Shown piece after piece: positions 23,946-48,736 of a stretch of DNA of 64,000 nucleotides (its first letter is position 1; each line of letters opens with the position of its first letter). The DNA is taken from the NCBI RefSeq assembly GCF_051903065.1, contig NZ_CP178438.1. The stretch is one strand, 5' to 3'. The position numbers were made by a program, and so were the translations under genes. Origin of the DNA: Escherichia coli. GTDB lineage: Bacteria > Pseudomonadota > Gammaproteobacteria > Enterobacterales > Enterobacteriaceae. Under the pieces are notes generated by a model. That model saw nothing but the letters and a program-made list of their open reading frames with translations. It had not been told where the DNA came from and did not search any database.

Positions 23946-24805
23946 CTCCTGAACTACCAGAGTTTTTATACAAACTCGAAAACTACACCGGCAGTATTGT
24001 AACCCGTGAAGCTACAAAATTGTTGATGCTCACAGGGCTGAGAACAGTAGAATTACGTATGGGGGAATGGTGTGAGATCGATTTTACCCAAAAGATATGG
24101 GAAGTTCCTCCGACCCGGATGAAAATGAGGAAGGAGCATATCGTCCCTCTGTCAGATCAGGCAATCCAGTCTCTGCAAATCCTCAAAGAACTGACTGGAA
24201 GATACAGATACATCTTTGCCGGAAGAAATGATGTTAACAGGCCTATCAGCGATGCAAGCGTCAATATGGTTTTGAAGAAGATTGGCTATGACAAAAAAGC
24301 TACCGGGCATGGATTTCGTCATACAATGAGTACTGTTCTACACGAGCAAGGATTCAATAGTGCATGGATTGAAATGCAACTTGCACATACGGACAAAAAC
24401 AGCATTCGTGGTACATACAACCATGCTCGTTACCTTGAAGGAAGACGAGAAATGATGCAATGGTACGCTGACTACCTTGATGCTCTTCGAAAAGAGTCAC
24501 CAGCTATATAATCGCTTGATTTTAAAGGCTGACTTAACGATATCCCCCTGATAGTCATTTATCAGTTATCTAATTATTAAGTCAGCCATAATCCCCTAAG
24601 TATCATTCCTTAATCAGATTCAGCACCTTGTAATACGACCGGTTAATTTAGAAAGAGACGATAGATAAACGCTTATGATGAAATACTAAGAAATTACTTC
24701 AGGCTCTATTAACTGGAGCTGTAATAGACAATAATTTAAATAACGCAATAGTTATATTTATATCTTAATATAAATTTCCACTGTATTTAAGGTAATGACT
24801 CCAAC

Positions 24806-25309
24806 TTATTGATAGTGTTTTATGTTCAGATAATGCCCGATGACTTTGTCATGCAGCTCCACCGATTTTGAGAACGACAGCGACTTCCGTCCCAGCCGTG
24901 CCAGGTGCTGCCTCAGATTCAGGTTATGCCGCTCAATTCGCTGCGTATATCGCTTGCTGATTACGTGCAGCTTTCCCTTCAGGCGGGATTCATACAGCGG
25001 CCAGCCATCCGTCATCCATATCACCACGTCAAAGGGTGACAGCAGGCTCATAAGACGCCCCAGCGTCGCCATAGTGCGTTCACCGAATACGTGCGCAACA
25101 ACCGTCTTCCGGAGCCTGTCATACGCGTAAAACAGCCAGCGCTGGCGCGATTTAGCCCCGACATAGCCCCACTGTTCGTCCATTTCCGCGCAGACGATGA
25201 CGTCACTGCCCGGCTGTATGCGCGAGGTTACCGACTGCGGCCTGAGTTTTTTAAGTGACGTAAAATCGTGTTGAGGCCAACGCCCATAATGCGGGCTGTT
25301 GCCCGGCAT
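24806..25309 (-). CDS. insB: IS1 InsB
   Basis: 167-aa [19 protein letters not shown]... Confidence 0.9.
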
Positions 25310-25503
25310 CCAACGCCATTCATGGCCATATCAATGATTTTCTGGTGCGTACCGGGTTGAGAAGCGGTGTAAGTGAACTGCAGTTGCCATGTTTTACGGC
25401 AGTGAGAGCAGAGATAGCGCTGATGTCCGGCGGTGCTTTTGCCGTTACGCACCACCCCGTCAGTAGCTGAACAGGAGGGACAGCTGATAGAAACAGAAGC
25501 CAC
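25228..25503 (-). CDS. insA: IS1 InsA
   Basis: 91-aa [43 protein letters not shown]... Confidence 0.9.
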
Positions 25504-25535
25504 TGGAGCACCTCAAAAACACCATCATACACTAA

Positions 25536-25937
<402 letters not shown>

Positions 25938-28959: not shown

Positions 28960-29393
28960 GTGTGCGCCGTGACTGGCGCTGTTCTTCAACTGTGGTGGCT
29001 GAAGAACGACTAAGAGGTGAAAGTTCTCCAAACACCCGGTGAGGGGAAATGTTAGCGGAAGGCAAGGATGTTCATCGCGAGGTGAAATCTGAAGGAAGCC
29101 GGATGCAAAATGCTGGCCTGACGAACAGGAAGCGGCTAAGGCGGCACAAATCACCAAAGCCCAATACTCACACGGAACGCGGTGACGTACAGCCGACAGG
29201 CATAAGCAGGAAAGTCGTGCGAATTACCCCGGGAGATCTGCCGCTCTGCCAGTGTGCTACCGACGCCGTAGTAGCGCTGCAAAACCGGCAGCATGAAGGG
29301 CCGAACATAATTAACCGTGATTAGGACATCCGAACCCGATGATGATTAATGAAGCATAAACGCAGGCAACTGCGGCCAGCGGCAGAAGAGACG

Positions 29394-30342
29394 GACGGCA
29401 TCCTGAGGTGTACTGGCAATAGCGGACACTACCATTTGTTCTTTTTTTAAGCAGCCATCTGATGATATTTTTCCCTGAAGGCTGCCGGGGAGATATTCCC
29501 CAGACGAGAGTGACGACGCTGACGATTGTAGAAAATCTCAATGTATTCCCGTATTACTGAGATGGCCTCATCCCGGCTATTAAAACGATAGTGGCTCAGG
29601 CTCTCATTTTTCAGCGTTCCCCAGAAGCTTTCCATCGGAGCGTTGTCGTAACAGTTACCTTTACGCGACATTGATGTTTTCAGACCAAACTGCTCCTGGA
29701 TGACCCGGTAATCGTATGCGCAGTACTGTGAACCTCGATCGGAGTGGTGGATTAGCCCAGCAGGTGGGCGCTGGCTCCTGAGCGCCATAAACATGGCTTT
29801 ACCTGTCAGCTCTTTTGTCATGCGCTCTCCCATGGCGTAGCCGACAATTTCGCACGTATAAACATCTTTGATGCCAGCGAGGTACAACCATCCCTCCTGT
29901 GTGGCAACATACGTCAGGTCCGCCACCCAGACCTGATTTGGTACTGTAGGAGCGAACGTCTGGTTCAGCAGATTTGGCGCAACTGGCAGATTGTGGCTCG
30001 AGTTCGTAGTCGCTCTGAACTTGCGTTTCTGCTTACAGCGTAGCCTTAGCTCCTTACGAAGACGTGCCAGTCGGTCACGACCAACGATGATGCCATTCTC
30101 TGCCAGCTCCGTCTGGAGCCGCCGGGTTCCATATGTTTCGCGAGTGCTGATATGTGCCACCTTAATCTCCAGTTTTAGCCGCTCATCACTTTGTTTTCTG
30201 TCTGAGGGGTCATGCTGTACCCAGTTGTAATAACCGCTCCTGGATACACCAAATACCTGACACATCGCTTCAATGGGAAATTGTTGTCGCCATTGTTCGA
30301 TTAACGCGTATTTTTCAGCGACTCCTGTGCAAAATACGCTGT
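29394..30342 (-). mobile_element. Right half of an IS3-family element (terminus tgaggtgtactggcaatagcggacact at 29394), including orfB 29447..30342, cut by IS30
   Basis: orfB with DDE integrase core ...HHSDRGSQY...; terminal repeat matches the IS3-family terminus at 45109. Confidence 0.7.
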
Positions 30343-31563
30343 TGTAGATTCAATCTGTCAATGCAACACCCCTTTCAATTATCTCTTTCGGTGTTTTGAA
30401 CTTCAGTGTCTTTCTCGGTCTGTTGTTTAGCTGAGCAGCAACCAGATCTAGTTCATGTTGAGTATATTGGGCAAGACATGTCTTTTTAGGAAAGTACTGC
30501 CGAATTAGCCCATTTGTGTTCTCATTTGTTCCCCGCTGCCAAGGACTCTGAGGATCGCAGAAGTAAACTTTAACGCCGGTGCTGACAGTAAATTCTAGAT
30601 GTCTGGCCAGTTCCATTCCTCTGTCCCATGTCAGTGATTTTCTGAGTTCTGACGGTAAACTCAGGAATTTGTCGGTAAGAGCCTGATTTACTGAGACAGA
30701 ATCTTTGCCCCTGAGTCTAAGGATGATCGTATAACGTGATTTTCGGTCTACAAGTGTGGCTATATGAGAGTTTTTTGTACCTAAGACTAAATCGCCCTCC
30801 CAATGCCCCAGAGAGCGTCTGTTATCGATATTTCGGGAACGTTCGTGAATTGGTGTTCCGTTCACTATGTTAATCGTACCTCTTTCGCCTTTGCGGGTAT
30901 GACGCCTGCCATGGCGAAGGCTATGCGACCGTCGCAGATGCTGTATATTCAGGTGGTGTAGCGCTTCACGGCTACGAAAGTACAGCGTTTTATAAATTGT
31001 CTCAGGTGATATTCGCAGCGTTTTTTGACGTGGTTTTGTTCGCCTTAACCATCCTGATATTTGCTCTGGAGACCATTTCATCTCCAGCTTTTCCAGAACA
31101 AGCTTTCGCAATGGTAAATTTTGATCCAGTAAGCACGGTTTTGGCCTTTTCGCCATTCTGTTGGCTCGGTTATTAGCATCAACAGCTTTGTAATAGCGTC
31201 TGCCCCGATTACGCTGAACTTCACGTGAGATCGTCGAAGGACTGCGATTCAGCGCAGTAGCTATCGCACGAATGCTCATTTTGGCTGACAAACCAGCTCG
31301 TATCTCCTCGCGCTCAGACAGTGTCAGGTGAGCTACAGCCCGCTTACGCTCATGGGGTTTTATGCCGCCAGTATCCCTTAACATAGTGAAGATCGTTCCG
31401 GGTTTTGAACCCAGGATATTCGCTATTTCACTGAAGCCTGTTCCGTTCTTCCATAGTTCAAAAACAGAGGCTTTTTCCTCTGCTGTAAATGTTCGTCTCA
31501 TTCAAAAAACCTCTGCAACCCCATGTTTTCACATAACTGTTGCGTTGACCAATTGAATCTACA
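30343..31563 (-). mobile_element. IS30 copy 1 (1221 bp) with intact 383-aa transposase (30350..31501)
   Basis: Ends tgtagattcaat...; transposase MRRTFTAEEKASVFELWKNGTGFSEIANILG... identical to copy 2. Confidence 0.9.
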
Positions 31564-31877
31564 ACGGCTTTTTTTAATATGTCCCGTTCGTCGGTAACCC
31601 GCTTCAGCTCTTTCTGGAGACGGCGGATCTCGGCCTGAGCATCTGACTGTTCTTTATTAGTGGAAGAATCCGGACCGTACTTCTTTATCCAGGAGTAAAG
31701 GCTGTGGGTGGTGATATTGAGACGTGTTGCAACGCTGGCAACAGAATAACCGCGATCAACAACCTGTTTGACTGCTTCAATTTTAAACTCTTCGGGATAA
31801 CGCTTACCGCTCATGGGCACCTCTCTTTAAGTCATCTTAAATGACTCTGAGGTGTCTATTAAACCTGTGGCGATTCA
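31564..31877 (-). mobile_element. Left part of an IS3-family element: orfA (31564..31814, ends ...ERDILKKA) interrupted by IS30
   Basis: orfA MSGKRYPEEFKIEAVKQVVDRGYSVASVATRL... with HTH; frameshift heptamer aaaaaag 4 bp before IS30 junction. Confidence 0.65.
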
Positions 31878-32271
31878 TTCGTCTTGTTTATCAGGTTATT
31901 GATGATATGTTAATTATTGCGGTAGTCGCAGTAGGTAAACGTGAACGTAGCAACGTTTATCATCTCGCCAGTGAGCGGATGAAATAATATCCCTGTCAGC
32001 ACTCTTTTTTATCTGCTGCCGTTTTTTCCGGTGATTTTTTTCTGCATGCAGAAAAAAGCCTGCCCGGAGGGCAGGCATGAAAGACAATCGCACAGTTAGT
32101 GTTGAAATTAATGATATCACGCATTATACCCGGTGGATACACAAACCATCCCATGTAAATGCACTGGCATCCTAATCTACGTCTGATAACAACTGCAATG
32201 GCTGGACCTGTGATTTAAGAGAAAGTTATTATGTTTATTGAATATAACCGAAGTGATAAATAAAAGTATTA

Positions 32272-32460
32272 TCACCTGTAATATTTATGCTTATTGCGTG
32301 GTTTTATCTGGTTATATAAAGCACAGATGTTCTCATTATTTTCTGAAAAATAACCATATGGATCGATTTCCCCCACCCAGCCGAAGCGGTTCGGCTCGTT
32401 CGGCGTGTCGTCGACACTGAAGCGCTTATCCACTTCGTTCCAGCGGTAAGAGTCGTCGCT
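32272..32460 (-). pseudogene. C-terminal fragment of an unknown protein, truncated upstream by an IS256-like end
   Basis: Open frame ...SDSDDSYRWNEVDKRFSVDDTPNEPNRFGWVGEIDPYGYFSENNENICALYNQ... with no recognisable family. Confidence 0.3.
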
Positions 32461-32701
32461 GTCGCTGACGAATGCCATCGGGTCGCTAAACAGCGTGATC
32501 CGCCATGCGATCAAAAAGCGTAAGTGTTTCCGACAGACGAGCCGGTGAAAAAAGTGGTGTGTCTGGCAATACAGGCATCGTCCCCGAAATGGACGATGCC
32601 GTTAAAGGACTGGGGTATGGCAATAAGCCGCTTTATTATCGGATTCAGTGACCGCCTGGACGGTTACTTTTGAGAAAAGGCATTTACACACAATCCTAAA
32701 C
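32456..32701 (+). mobile_element. IS256-family element 3' fragment (transposase C-terminus plus terminal repeat)
   Basis: Sequence at 32611..32701 is near-identical to the IS256-like end at 44381..44460; antisense ORF shares the WRITLFSD-MAFV frame with 43500..43829. Confidence 0.5.
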
Positions 32702-32847
32702 AGACTCCTATATTTCAGATTTTGTTATCAACGCATTTCAAATCTCTTAGAAATCATTACTGTCGTCATATTTTCCGAGGCAGCTCACCACCTAACCATG
32801 TCTTATCAACAATATTTTGTGAAGGATATTTATAATGTAAAGACACA

Positions 32848-45108: not shown

Positions 45109-45435
45109 TGAGGTAGCCTGAGTTTAACGGACACTCCTTCCTGAAATAGAATGGCATCAGAAGGAGCTAATAATGAGCAGAAAAACCCAACGTTACTCTA
45201 AAGAGTTCAAAGCCGAAGCTGTCAGAACGGTTCTTGAAAATCAACTTTCGATCAGTGAAGGCGCTTCCCGATTATCTCTTCCTGAAGGCACTTTAGGACA
45301 ATGGGTTACCGCCGCCAGAAAAGGGCTCGGTACTCTTGGTTCCCGCACGGTGGCTGAACTGGAATCTGAAATTCTGCAACTGCGTAAGGCGTTAAATGAA
45401 GCTCGCCTTGAGCGAGATATATTAAAAAAAGCCGT
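45109..45435 (+). mobile_element. Left part of an IS3-family (IS600-like) element: terminus tgaggtagcctgagtttaacggacactcc, orfA 45173..45435 (ends ...ERDILKKA) interrupted by IS30
   Basis: orfA MSRKTQRYSKEFKAEAVRTVLENQLSISEGASRL...; terminus matches the one at 29394. Confidence 0.7.
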
Positions 45436-47572
<2,137 letters not shown>

Positions 47573-47573
47573 T

Positions 47574-47897
47574 GTCGTTGAACTGCATAATACTGGCCCA
47601 AGCACCGCAACCAGTCTTGCTGCGCTTATCGCTTTATGTTCGATATTGCTGGCAAAACCAGTACAGGAACAGATGGTGGTGTTGGGCAGTATGACGCTTG
47701 GTGGAGTAATTAACCCGATACAAGATCTTGCTGCCAGTTTACAGCTCGCCTTCGACAGCGGCGCAAAACGAGTTCTGTTGCCGATGTCCTCGGCTATGGA
47801 TATTCCAACGGTTCCGGCAGAGTTATTTACCAAGTTTCAGGTGAGTTTTTACTCAGACCCGGTTGATGCTGTTTATAAGGCGCTGGGTGTGAATTAA
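47574..47897 (+). pseudogene. Lon-like serine protease C-terminal (proteolytic) domain fragment, 5'-truncated at the IS3-family terminus
   Basis: Manual in-frame translation ...TGPSTATSLAALIALCSILAKPVQEQMVVLGSMTLGGVINPIQDLAASLQLAFDSGAKRVLLPMSSAMDIP... retains GPS and AKRVLLP motifs of the Lon Ser-Lys dyad; no ATPase domain present. Confidence 0.5.
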
Positions 47898-47968
47898 TGT
47901 AGTAACTATTTTAATGAACTGGAGAGGACAATGGCTCAAGAACGTTCTGTAATTAAATTCATCAGACC

Positions 47969-48736
47969 GGTAATGACTCCAACTTATTGATAGTGTTTTA
48001 TGTTCAGATAATGCCCGATGACTTTGTCATGCAGCTCCACCGATTTTGAGAACGACAGCGACTTCCGTCCCAGCCGTGCCAGGTGCTGCCTCAGATTCAG
48101 GTTATGCCGCTCAATTCGCTGCGTATATCGCTTGCTGATTACGTGCAGCTTTCCCTTCAGGCGGGATTCATACAGCGGCCAGCCATCCGTCATCCATATC
48201 ACCACGTCAAAGGGTGACAGCAGGCTCATAAGACGCCCCAGCGTCGCCATAGTGCGTTCACCGAATACGTGCGCAACAACCGTCTTCCGGAGCCTGTCAT
48301 ACGCGTAAAACAGCCAGCGCTGGCGCGATTTAGCCCCGACATAGCCCCACTGTTCGTCCATTTCCGCGCAGACGATGACGTCACTGCCCGGCTGTATGCG
48401 CGAGGTTACCGACTGCGGCCTGAGTTTTTTAAGTGACGTAAAATCGTGTTGAGGCCAACGCCCATAATGCGGGCTGTTGCCCGGCATCCAACGCCATTCA
48501 TGGCCATATCAATGATTTTCTGGTGCGTACCGGGTTGAGAAGCGGTGTAAGTGAACTGCAGTTGCCATGTTTTACGGCAGTGAGAGCAGAGATAGCGCTG
48601 ATGTCCGGCGGTGCTTTTGCCGTTACGCACCACCCCGTCAGTAGCTGAACAGGAGGGACAGCTGATAGAAACAGAAGCCACTGGAGCACCTCAAAAACAC
48701 CATCATACACTAAATCAGTAAGTTGGCAGCATCACC
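47969..48736 (-). mobile_element. IS1 copy 2 (768 bp; insB 47984..48487, insA 48406..48681), no target-site duplication
   Basis: Same ends as copy 1; flanks catcagacc vs ggctgttta do not match. Confidence 0.9.

What the first reader, a model, noticed from the sequence alone, without database searches (positions are those of the whole stretch)
31540..31600. Both IS30 copies are inserted at the identical position of the IS3-family frameshift window (second junction at 45415..45460)
The sequence immediately outside the IS30 left end is ...ttaaaaaaagccgt in both copies (31564..31577 revcomp and 45422..45435), 4 bp past the A-AAA-AAG slippery heptamer, interrupting orfA after ERDILKKA. The DNA further upstream differs between the copies (gaacgggacata vs gagcgagatata), so these are distinct elements sharing one precise insertion point. 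The dinucleotides flanking IS30 are gt (left) and ac (right) in both copies, not a simple 2-bp direct duplication. This suggests either a strong IS30 target hot spot in the conserved IS3 frameshift region or a targeted intramolecular transposition that created the second copy and the inversion together.
Basis: seen in the sequence. Interest (0 to 1): 0.6.

Follow-up and report, generated by a model that had tools for sequence, protein, structure and literature searches.

The report
IS30 hot spot inside IS3-family elements
Two identical copies of the jumping gene IS30 sit at exactly the same nucleotide of the frameshift signal of other (IS3-family) jumping genes because that conserved signal matches IS30's known preferred landing site; it is ordinary mobile-element biology, already visible in E. 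coli K-12.

Summary
Two 1221-bp IS30 copies, 100% identical and inverted, lie at 30343-31563 (-) and 45436-46656 (+). Each abuts ...TTAAAAAAAGCCGT on its left end and AC... on its right. The flanks diverge within 14-26 bp.

Four half-elements from three IS3-family hosts are involved. Copy 1 lies between an unnamed 'ISX' 5' half and an IS600 3' half. Copy 2 lies between an IS600 5' half and an IS911 3' half.

This site is a general IS30 hot spot:
- E. coli K-12 carries IS911A::IS30A and an IS600/IS911B-flanked IS30D at the same nucleotide.
- 54 of 78 IS30 ends in IMG/VR contigs abut such a site.
- A matrix built only from non-IS3 sites ranks these sites #1 and #5 of 28,001 positions.

Relatives give the history. 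The ancestor (strain 14EC033) has one IS30 and an intact IS600. An IS30 then entered the IS600 hot spot, and the 13.9-kb segment between the inverted copies flipped. One-step and two-step routes cannot be separated.

The odd left 'GT' of copy 2 is secondary. A sister genome keeps the canonical GCA-AC, so 3 nt were converted to match copy 1's flank. The 'GT' at ISX (GC expected) remains unexplained.

Verdict: real but already known in kind, of low to moderate interest.

The parts
29404..30342 (-). IS600-like element, 3' part (from the frameshift window to the right inverted repeat). It is now the right flank of IS30 copy 1.
   Evidence: Translation gives TAYFAQESLKNTR.... It is contiguous with the 5' part in relatives that have an intact IS600. 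The IRR tip was located.
30343..31563 (-). IS30 copy 1 (1221 bp). The IRR tip is at 30343 and the IRL tip at 31563. The transposase ORF is 30350..31501 (383 aa).
   Evidence: 3-4 nt different from K-12 IS30. RefSeq annotation of the identical region: 'IS30-like element IS30 family transposase'.
31564..31877 (-). 5' part of an unnamed IS3-family element ('ISX'), from its left inverted repeat to the frameshift window. It is the ancestral left flank of IS30. The junction reads GCC-GT instead of the canonical GCC-GC.
   Evidence: OrfA fragment MSGKRYPEEF...ERDILKKA. Intact copies read TTAAAAAAAGCC GC GGCGTAC. No native GT variant was found among 763 plasmid records.
31564..45435 (.). 13,872-bp segment between the two IS30 copies, inverted relative to the single-copy ancestor. 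It carries an autotransporter gene (32848..36345, -), IS66 remnants and an intact ISEc31-like element.
   Evidence: Segment comparison with L002, L066 and L070.
37414..38671 (-). Intact ISEc31-like IS3-family element. Its frameshift window (TTAAAAAAGGCT AC CGCG, centre about 38328-38329) is an unoccupied, top-scoring IS30 hot spot.
   Evidence: It ranks #1 of 28,001 positions in the ancestor-type locus. The same site is occupied by IS30 in L058, L047, L056 and L001.
45109..45435 (+). IS600-like element, 5' part (left inverted repeat to the frameshift window), now the left flank of IS30 copy 2. Its last 3 nt (45433-45435, CGT) are not IS600 sequence (native AAC) and equal copy 1's ISX flank.
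   Evidence: native GCAACAGCG in L002. (sister genome L064 has GCA-AC|IRL). (the exact GCCGT junction occurs in only 3 of 5426 genomes).
45436..46656 (+). IS30 copy 2 (1221 bp). The transposase ORF is 45498..46649 (383 aa).
46657..47572 (+). IS911-family element, 3' part (frameshift window to the right inverted repeat). It is the ancestral right flank of IS30, with a canonical AC-CGCG junction.
   Evidence: Annotation: 'IS3-like element IS911 family transposase, missing N-terminus'.
45173..45541 (+). 122-aa chimeric ORF: 87 aa of IS600 OrfA fused to 35 codons read into the IS30 left end. Its counterpart at copy 1 is 31458..31820 (-), 120 aa.
   Evidence: An ORF of the same 122-aa size was listed for 'IS911' next to IS30 in the hbp region of pColV-K30 (PMC2212542).

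Best explanation
IS30 has a known preference for long, roughly palindromic 'hot spot' targets, where it makes a 2-bp staggered cut at the centre. The -1 frameshift window conserved in IS3-family elements (TTAAAAAA(A/G)G(C/G)N | NN | ...) is a very good match. IS30 therefore lands again and again at the dinucleotide 3-4 nt after the A-AAA-AAG heptamer, splitting orfA from orfB and inactivating the host element.

History in this chromosomal island:
1. Shown: the ancestral state had one IS30 lying between an ISX 5' half and an IS911 3' half. That pairing is itself a recombinant of earlier hot-spot insertions. An intact IS600 lay 13.9 kb away in the opposite orientation.
2. Shown as an outcome, mechanism inferred: a copy of IS30 entered the IS600 hot spot by copy-out/paste-in, with the canonical AC duplication still preserved in a sister genome.
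3. Shown as an outcome: the 13.9-kb segment between the two inverted copies is inverted. Each copy therefore carries one old and one new flank, which is why neither copy shows a direct repeat. The inversion may have happened in the same intramolecular event or later by RecA recombination between the 1.2-kb inverted repeats; this cannot be decided.
4. Inferred: in the window's sublineage the 3 nt next to the left end of copy 2 (AAC) were overwritten with those of copy 1 (CGT). The likely route is gene conversion running out of IS30 into the 11 nt (TTAAAAAAAGC) that the two IS3-family flanks share.
For: Hot spot:
- The identical position is used in IS600 (GCA|AC|AGCG; 9 whole copies), IS911, ISEc31-like, ISX (GCC|GC|GGCG) and one more IS3-like element. 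ISX, IS911 and the ISEc31-like element are hit in both orientations, and whole copies whose two flanks come from one host show canonical 2-bp duplications.
- K-12 MG1655 has IS911A::IS30A, and IS30D flanked by IS600 and IS911B halves, at the same nucleotide.
- 54 of 78 IS30 ends in IMG/VR loci abut such a half-site.
- 1283 of 5426 complete E. coli genomes hold the IS600-5'|IS30 junction.
- A matrix from 16 non-IS3 half-sites ranks the ISEc31-like site #1 and the IS600 site #5 of 28,001 positions, at the exact dinucleotide.

History:
- The window reads S1-IS30rc-S5-rc(S2)-IS30-rc(S3)-S6.
- The reconstructed ancestor aligns colinearly at 99.83-99.85% with strain 14EC033, apart from an IS2 insertion there.
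- The uninverted two-copy isomer exists in strain WEC.
- A deletion derivative has the same IS30 joined to the same IS600 dinucleotide (L063).
- SNPs place the IS600::IS30 states in different clades, so this one IS600 was probably hit at least 3 times.

Conversion:
- Native IS600 here reads GCA-AC.
- Sister genome L064 has the same two-copy inverted arrangement with GCA-AC|IRL and groups with the window by 5 shared SNPs.
- The GCC-GT junction occurs in only 3 genomes, all of the window's sublineage.
Against: - The published 24-bp consensus (Olasz et al. 1998) could not be read, so the match to it rests on my own small matrix (16 half-sites).
- The IMG/VR and RefSeq counts include many copies related by descent, so they overstate the number of independent events.
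- The order 'canonical first, conversion later' assumes the two-copy arrangement arose once in the ancestor of the window and L064. Independent events or a back-conversion in L064 are not excluded.
- A conversion tract crossing 3 mismatches into only 11 nt of homology is unusual. IS30 workers reported conversion for IR-targeting, not hot-spot targeting (from my memory of the abstract of the paper cited as ref. 22 in PMC9333248).
- The GCC-GT junction at ISX (GC expected) is not explained by this model.
Confidence: 0.8

Rival explanations
1. One-step origin. The resident IS30, through an IR-IR junction or IS dimer, attacked the IS600 hot spot on the same chromosome. This created the second copy and the 13.9-kb inversion in a single intramolecular transposition.
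For: - The product has the expected anatomy: two inverted copies, each with one old and one new flank, and the AC/GT duplication split between them.
- The new copy has the same IS30 allele as its neighbour, whereas other IS600::IS30 insertions at this locus carry a K-12-like allele.
- IS30 is reported to generate inversions and deletions in this way (PMC9333248).
- The deletion derivative L063 is the outcome expected when donor and target have the same orientation.
Against: - A simple insertion followed by RecA inversion gives exactly the same sequence.
- The uninverted isomer exists in strain WEC.
- L063 can equally arise by insertion followed by recombination between direct repeats.
- The identical alleles could also reflect later homogenisation.
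Confidence: 0.4
2. Single insertion later copied. One IS3::IS30 locus was duplicated in inverted orientation, so the shared junction reflects common descent and not target choice.
For: The IS30 copies are 100% identical, and the 14 nt left of both copies are identical.
Against: - The flanks diverge after 14 nt (23 of 26 identical, then about 50%) on the left, and immediately on the right.
- The flanks belong to three different elements.
- The IS600 halves on the two copies reassemble into one intact IS600 in relatives.
Confidence: 0.02
3. The non-duplicated GT is an insertion signature. The 2-3 nt next to the left end travelled with IS30 as the spacer of the IR-IR junction and were ligated in instead of being repaired to a target duplication. 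Spacers of 2 bp are usual, and 1- and 3-bp spacers have been reported.
For: - The trinucleotide at the new IS600 junction equals the donor's flank.
- A second lineage (M217 type) has the IS600 5' half ending GCC-GC, the canonical ISX flank, with a normal AC on the right.
- At ISX, a GT flap would pair with the GC gap through G:C and T:G.
Against: - Sister genome L064 carries the canonical GCA-AC in the same arrangement.
- The replacement preserves length and register, which points to homology-guided exchange.
- A 3-nt flap does not fit a 2-nt gap.
- The ISX-GT flank is found joined to either end of IS30, which the flap model does not predict.
Confidence: 0.15

Closest known systems
IS30 hot-spot (HS) targeting, as described by Olasz, Kiss, Arber and colleagues
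   Same: - The exact same phosphodiester is used repeatedly.
- The duplication is 2 bp, at the centre of an imperfect palindrome with A-rich/T-rich arms and a G+C core.
- Several of the host elements are hit in both orientations.
- Donor copies generate insertions, deletions and inversions.
   Different: Nothing essential. The point I did not find stated in the searchable literature is that the hot spot coincides with the conserved frameshift window of a whole IS family.
E. coli K-12 nested elements IS911A::IS30A (CP4-6 prophage) and IS911B / IS30D / IS600 (KpLE2)
   Same: - Same nucleotide position: GGCT-AC|IS30|AC-CGCG, and IS600 GCA-AC|IRL.
- The same kind of hybrid flanks: IS30D lies between an IS600 5' half and an IS911B 5' half.
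   Different: - The window has two identical inverted copies 13.9 kb apart in another island.
- It has an ISX half as one flank.
- It has a converted junction trinucleotide.
Gene conversion associated with IS30 transposition (Olasz et al. 2003, J Mol Biol 334:967; cited in PMC9333248; abstract recalled from memory)
   Same: Short sequence stretches near an IS30 end are replaced by those of another copy, and homology is needed.
   Different: - That work concerned insertion next to an IS30 inverted repeat, and reportedly never saw conversion at hot-spot targets.
- Here the converted bases lie outside IS30, in flanks that are homologous only because both hosts are IS3-family frameshift windows.
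Inversion between inverted IS copies (classical IS-mediated rearrangement)
   Same: Two inverted identical copies bracket a segment that occurs in both orientations in different strains (the window versus strain WEC).
   Different: None. It is the ordinary expectation.

Membership tests
IS30 (IS30 family insertion sequence) | A 1221-bp element nearly identical to the reference IS30. | tested here: met
   Both copies are 1221 bp and differ at 3-4 nt from K-12 IS30A, IS30C and IS30D.
IS30 (IS30 family insertion sequence) | Imperfect 26-bp terminal inverted repeats beginning TGTAGATTCAAT. | tested here: met
   IRL is TGTAGATTCAATTGGTCAACGCAAC and IRR is TGTAGATTCAATCTGTCAATGCAAC, at all four ends.
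IS30 (IS30 family insertion sequence) | A single 383-aa transposase ORF. | tested here: met
   ORFs at 30350..31501 (-) and 45498..46649 (+), 383 aa each. RefSeq names them IS30 family transposase.
IS30 (IS30 family insertion sequence) | A 2-bp direct target duplication. | tested here: not met
   - In the window both copies are flanked GT...AC.
- This is explained by flank exchange plus a 3-nt conversion.
- The canonical AC...AC is present for the same insertion site in L064, WEC, fS54a and K-12.
IS30 hot-spot target | Repeated insertion at exactly the same position of the target, in independent events. | tested here: met
   At least 5 host elements are hit, three of them (ISX, IS911, ISEc31-like) in both orientations, and this single IS600 copy was probably hit at least 3 times.
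IS30 hot-spot target | A match to the long palindromic consensus of IS30 insertion sites. | tested here: inconclusive
- An empirical matrix from 16 non-IS3 half-sites ranks the sites #1 and #5 of 28,001 positions.
IS3 family (host elements IS600, IS911, ISX, ISEc31-like) | Two overlapping ORFs joined by a -1 frameshift at an A-AAA-AAG type heptamer. | tested here: met
   - The heptamer is present in all four.
- Intact copies are annotated 'programmed frameshift'.
- Frameshifting itself was not assayed.
Intramolecular transposition with inversion | A single-copy ancestor; two inverted copies bracketing the inverted segment; each copy with one old and one new flank. | tested here: met
   These features do not exclude insertion followed by homologous inversion.
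IS30 composite transposon | The whole IS30-segment-IS30 unit is flanked by one target duplication and is found as a unit at other sites. | tested here: not met
   - The outer flanks are an IS600 3' half and an IS911 3' half, which belong to the ancestral locus.
- Both outer ends are IRR.

The most novel reading that the evidence does not exclude
The recoding (frameshift) window conserved across the IS3 family acts as a family-wide landing pad for IS30, so IS30 systematically nests in and inactivates IS3-family elements. IS30 copies then sit in mutually homologous flanks, so copies in different hosts exchange junction nucleotides by short gene conversion. This happens at hot-spot sites, where conversion was reported not to occur. 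Examples are IS600 junctions carrying CGT or CGC from ISX flanks.
Probability: 0.45. Interest if true: 0.4.

Novelty: already known. Interest (0 to 1): 0.27.

Why it matters
- It explains a recurrent annotation pattern, 'IS3 family transposase, partial' next to IS30. About a quarter of complete E. coli genomes (1283 of 5426) hold the IS600-5'|IS30 junction.
- It shows how nested IS insertions seed inversions and deletions in genomic islands. Here the affected segment is 13.9 kb and carries an autotransporter gene.
- It warns that flanking dinucleotides of IS30 cannot be read naively as target duplications.
- It adds no new kind of system. At most it gives a tidy generalisation (a translational recoding signal doubling as a transposon hot spot) and a natural example of junction conversion.

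Tried and rejected
- Genome-collection scan for the IS30 left end: one match only, so it was useless as a survey. The IMG/VR scan replaced it.
- Published hot-spot consensus: Olasz 1998 and Olasz 1997 could not be obtained.
- No paper in the searchable library states that IS30 targets IS3-family frameshift windows. Only K-12's 'IS911 interrupted by IS30A' was found.
- Hypothesis that the left GT is the IR-IR spacer ligated in as a flap: it fitted the window at first. It was weakened by native IS600 being GCA-AC (3 nt differ, not 2) and by L064's canonical junction.
- Hypothesis that ISX has a native GCC-GT-GGC variant: no full-length exact match among 763 plasmid records.
- Hypothesis that the IS600 here natively has GCC: relatives at this locus have GCA.
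- Deriving the window directly from the commonest relative (CRE1540 type): impossible by one inversion. This led to the predicted ancestor, which was then found.
- Composite-transposon reading: rejected because the outer flanks are ancestral neighbours.

Full report
**1. What is in the window**

Two inverted repeats of 1253 nt (30337-31589 and 45410-46662) were found. Each consists of a 1221-bp IS30 plus short flanks. Copy 1 is 30343..31563 on the minus strand and copy 2 is 45436..46656 on the plus strand. The two copies are identical at all 1221 positions. They differ from the three IS30 copies of E. coli K-12 at 3-4 positions. Each encodes the 383-aa transposase.

The 14 nt outside the left end (IRL) are TTAAAAAAAGCCGT in both copies. 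Further out, 23 of 26 nt match, and identity then falls to about 50%. Both upstream frames end ...ERDILKKA. The right flanks both begin with AC and then differ.

**2. Four half-elements from three hosts**

| Flank | Identity | Coordinates | Evidence |
|---|---|---|---|
| Left of copy 2 | 5' part of an IS600-like element, from its left inverted repeat | 45109..45435 | MSRKTQRYSKEF... |
| Right of copy 1 | 3' part of the same IS600 | 30342 down to 29404 | TAYFAQESLKNTR |
| Left of copy 1 | 5' part of an unnamed IS3-family element, here 'ISX' | 31564..31877 | MSGKRYPEEF... |
| Right of copy 2 | 3' part of an IS911-family element, ending in the IS911 right inverted repeat | 46657..47572 | [13 protein letters not shown] |

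Intact ISX copies on plasmids read TTAAAAAAAGCC-GC-GGCGTAC. Neither IS30 copy lies between the two halves of one host element.

**3. The position is a general IS30 hot spot**

A scan of IMG/VR for either IS30 end gave 52 loci. In these and in other fetched loci, IS30 sits at the same dinucleotide in several hosts:
- IS600: GCA|AC|AGCG, in nine whole copies.
- IS911 and an ISEc31-like relative: GGCT|AC|CGCG.
- ISX: GCC|GC|GGCG.
- One further IS3-like element.

ISX, IS911 and the ISEc31-like element are hit in both orientations. Whole copies whose two flanks come from one host carry canonical 2-bp duplications.

Of 78 IS30 ends from IMG/VR with a readable flank, 54 abut such a half-site. Many of these are related by descent.

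E. coli K-12 MG1655 shows the same pattern:
- IS911A is interrupted by IS30A at GGCT-AC|...|AC-CGCG.
- IS30D lies between an IS600 5' half (GCA-AC|IRL) and an IS911B 5' half.
- Only IS30C lies elsewhere, in ydbA, with duplication CT.

The interruption of IS911 by IS30A is also noted by the IS30 laboratory (PMC9333248). An IS911 ORF abutting IS30 was listed next to hbp in pColV-K30 (PMC2212542).

In complete E. coli genomes, 1283 of 5426 hold the IS600-5'|IS30-IRL junction.

As a non-circular test I built a position matrix from the 16 distinct half-sites that are not IS3-family windows. Its arm consensus is A-rich followed by G/C. I scanned a 28-kb ancestor-type locus with it as a palindrome. 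The ISEc31-like frameshift site ranked #1 and the IS600 site #5 of 28,001 positions, each centred on the dinucleotide actually used.

I could not obtain the published 24-bp consensus. That IS30 has a long palindromic hot-spot consensus and makes 2-bp duplications is established knowledge (PMC9333248; Olasz 1998 recalled from memory).

**4. History of this locus**

The window is a chromosomal island next to tRNA-Arg. It is 100% identical over the queried 19.5 kb (window 29000-48500) to strains 23CRST031 and 23CRST027.

I divided the region into segments S1-S6. S1 ends with the IS600 3' half. S2 is the IS600 5' half plus 42 bp beyond its left end. S3 is the first 364 nt of the IS911 3' part. S5 is the region from the ISX half up to S2. 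S6 is the rest of IS911 and beyond. Relatives then show these arrangements:

| Type | Example | Arrangement |
|---|---|---|
| Window | window, L003, L064 | S1-IS30rc-S5-rc(S2)-IS30-rc(S3)-S6 |
| Commonest relative | CRE1540 (L002) | S1-S2-S3-IS30rc-S5-S6, with an intact IS600 |
| Deletion derivative | L063 | S1-IS30rc-S5-S6 |

Neither relative converts to the window in one step. Both derive from a predicted ancestor, S1-S2-rc(S5)-IS30-rc(S3)-S6.

That ancestor exists. 93 genomes have the diagnostic 'S5 end-intact IS600' adjacency. At least 37 genomes have ISX-IS30-IS911 contiguous, and at least seven genomes are in both lists. Strain 14EC033 aligns colinearly with my reconstruction at 99.83-99.85%, apart from an IS2 insertion.

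From this ancestor, an IS30 insertion into the IS600 hot spot plus inversion of the intervening 13.9 kb gives the window exactly.

The uninverted two-copy isomer also exists, in strain WEC. There the IS600-resident IS30 has canonical AC...AC flanks and a K-12-like allele that differs at 6 nt from the window's IS30. It therefore came from another donor.

Strains fS54a and FDAARGOS_536 also carry IS30 in this IS600.

SNPs in the shared segments place these states in different clades, interspersed with genomes whose IS600 is intact. This single IS600 copy was therefore probably hit at least three times.

In L063 the resident IS30 is joined by its right end to the same IS600 dinucleotide, with loss of 730 bp.

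**5. Why the flanks are GT...AC**

The two right-hand ACs are the canonical halves of the duplications in IS600 and IS911. Both hosts have a Thr codon (ACA/ACC) at the centre of the site. Because the segment between the copies is inverted, each copy pairs an old flank with a new one, so no direct repeat is expected.

The left GT of copy 2 is not original:
- Native IS600 at this locus reads GCA-AC.
- Sister genome L064 has the same two-copy inverted arrangement and groups with the window by five shared SNPs. It has GCA-AC|IRL.
- The window has GCC-GT, which is 3 nt different, preserves length, and equals the flank of copy 1.
- This exact junction occurs in only 3 of 5426 genomes, all of the window's sublineage.

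The simplest reading is a short gene conversion between the inverted copies. It would have run past the IS30 end into the 11 nt (TTAAAAAAAGC) shared by the ISX and IS600 flanks.

A second lineage (M217 type, at galF, at least 11 genomes) has an IS600 5' half ending GCC-GC. That is the canonical ISX flank. Its right side carries a normal AC. Foreign junction trinucleotides therefore recur.

The alternative is carry-over of the IR-IR spacer. Spacers of 1-3 bp have been reported (PMC5821093). This fits less well (see the rival explanations).

The GT at the ISX junction, where GC is expected, remains unexplained:
- No native ISX variant with GT exists among 763 plasmid records.
- The ISX-GT half is found joined to either end of IS30 in different replicons.

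**6. One step or two**

An intramolecular transposition with inversion predicts the same sequence as a simple insertion followed by RecA inversion. The two routes likewise predict the same deletion derivative. Both isomers occur in nature, and 1.2-kb inverted repeats flip readily. Today's orientation therefore carries no information about origin.

The new copy shares the allele of its neighbour. This mildly favours the neighbour as donor.

**7. Verdict**

Its explanation is IS30's known hot-spot specificity meeting a sequence that the IS3 family conserves for translational frameshifting. Ordinary IS-mediated rearrangement followed.

The same nested insertions are annotated in E. coli K-12, so the kind of event is already known. 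Two modest points may be new. First, the hot spot is family-wide across IS3 elements. Second, junction nucleotides can be exchanged between IS30 copies lying in different IS3-family hosts.

Noticed in passing
window 24791-25558 and 47969-48736: Two 768-bp IS1 copies, 100% identical and in direct orientation, bracket the whole 22.4-kb region that holds both IS30 copies. This could act as a composite unit or as a substrate for deletion. Relative ZF8-1 has an IS1-associated deletion that removed IS30 copy 1.
   Followed up: partly
window 37414-38671 (-), centre about 38328-38329: An intact ISEc31-like IS3-family element lies inside the inverted segment. Its frameshift window is the best-scoring IS30 target in the locus but is unoccupied here. 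The same site carries IS30 in other genomes.
   Followed up: yes
window 45067-45074 and 47013-47020: An imperfect 8-bp microhomology (AT[G/C]CCTAA region) marks the end points of a different inversion. That inversion is seen in the commonest relatives (CRE1540 type) and splits IS911. Its mechanism is unknown.
   Followed up: partly
window 31564-31568; also L001, L006, L012, L017: The ISX half ends GCC-GT where canonical ISX::IS30 insertions have GCC-GC. No native GT variant of ISX was found. The same GT half is joined to the IS30 left end in some replicons and to the right end in others.
   Followed up: partly
L067 (E. coli M217, galF locus) and at least 11 similar genomes: An IS600 interrupted by IS30 has the left junction GCC-GC (the canonical ISX flank) and the right junction AC-AGCG. 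This is a second case of a foreign trinucleotide at an IS600|IS30 junction.
   Followed up: partly
window 32848-36345 (-): A 1165-aa autotransporter gene lies in the invertible segment. Related plasmids carry IS30 and the ISX half next to a 95-99% identical autotransporter gene, so the module appears to move between plasmids and chromosomes.
   Followed up: no
window 41760-41843: Two tandem 42-bp units (93% identical) lie inside an IS66-family tnpC pseudogene.
   Followed up: no
L003 (strain 23CRST031), at the position of window 31788-31796: The otherwise identical strain carries an extra IS903B insertion in the ISX half that the window lacks. The window therefore comes from a very close but different genome or variant.
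   Followed up: no
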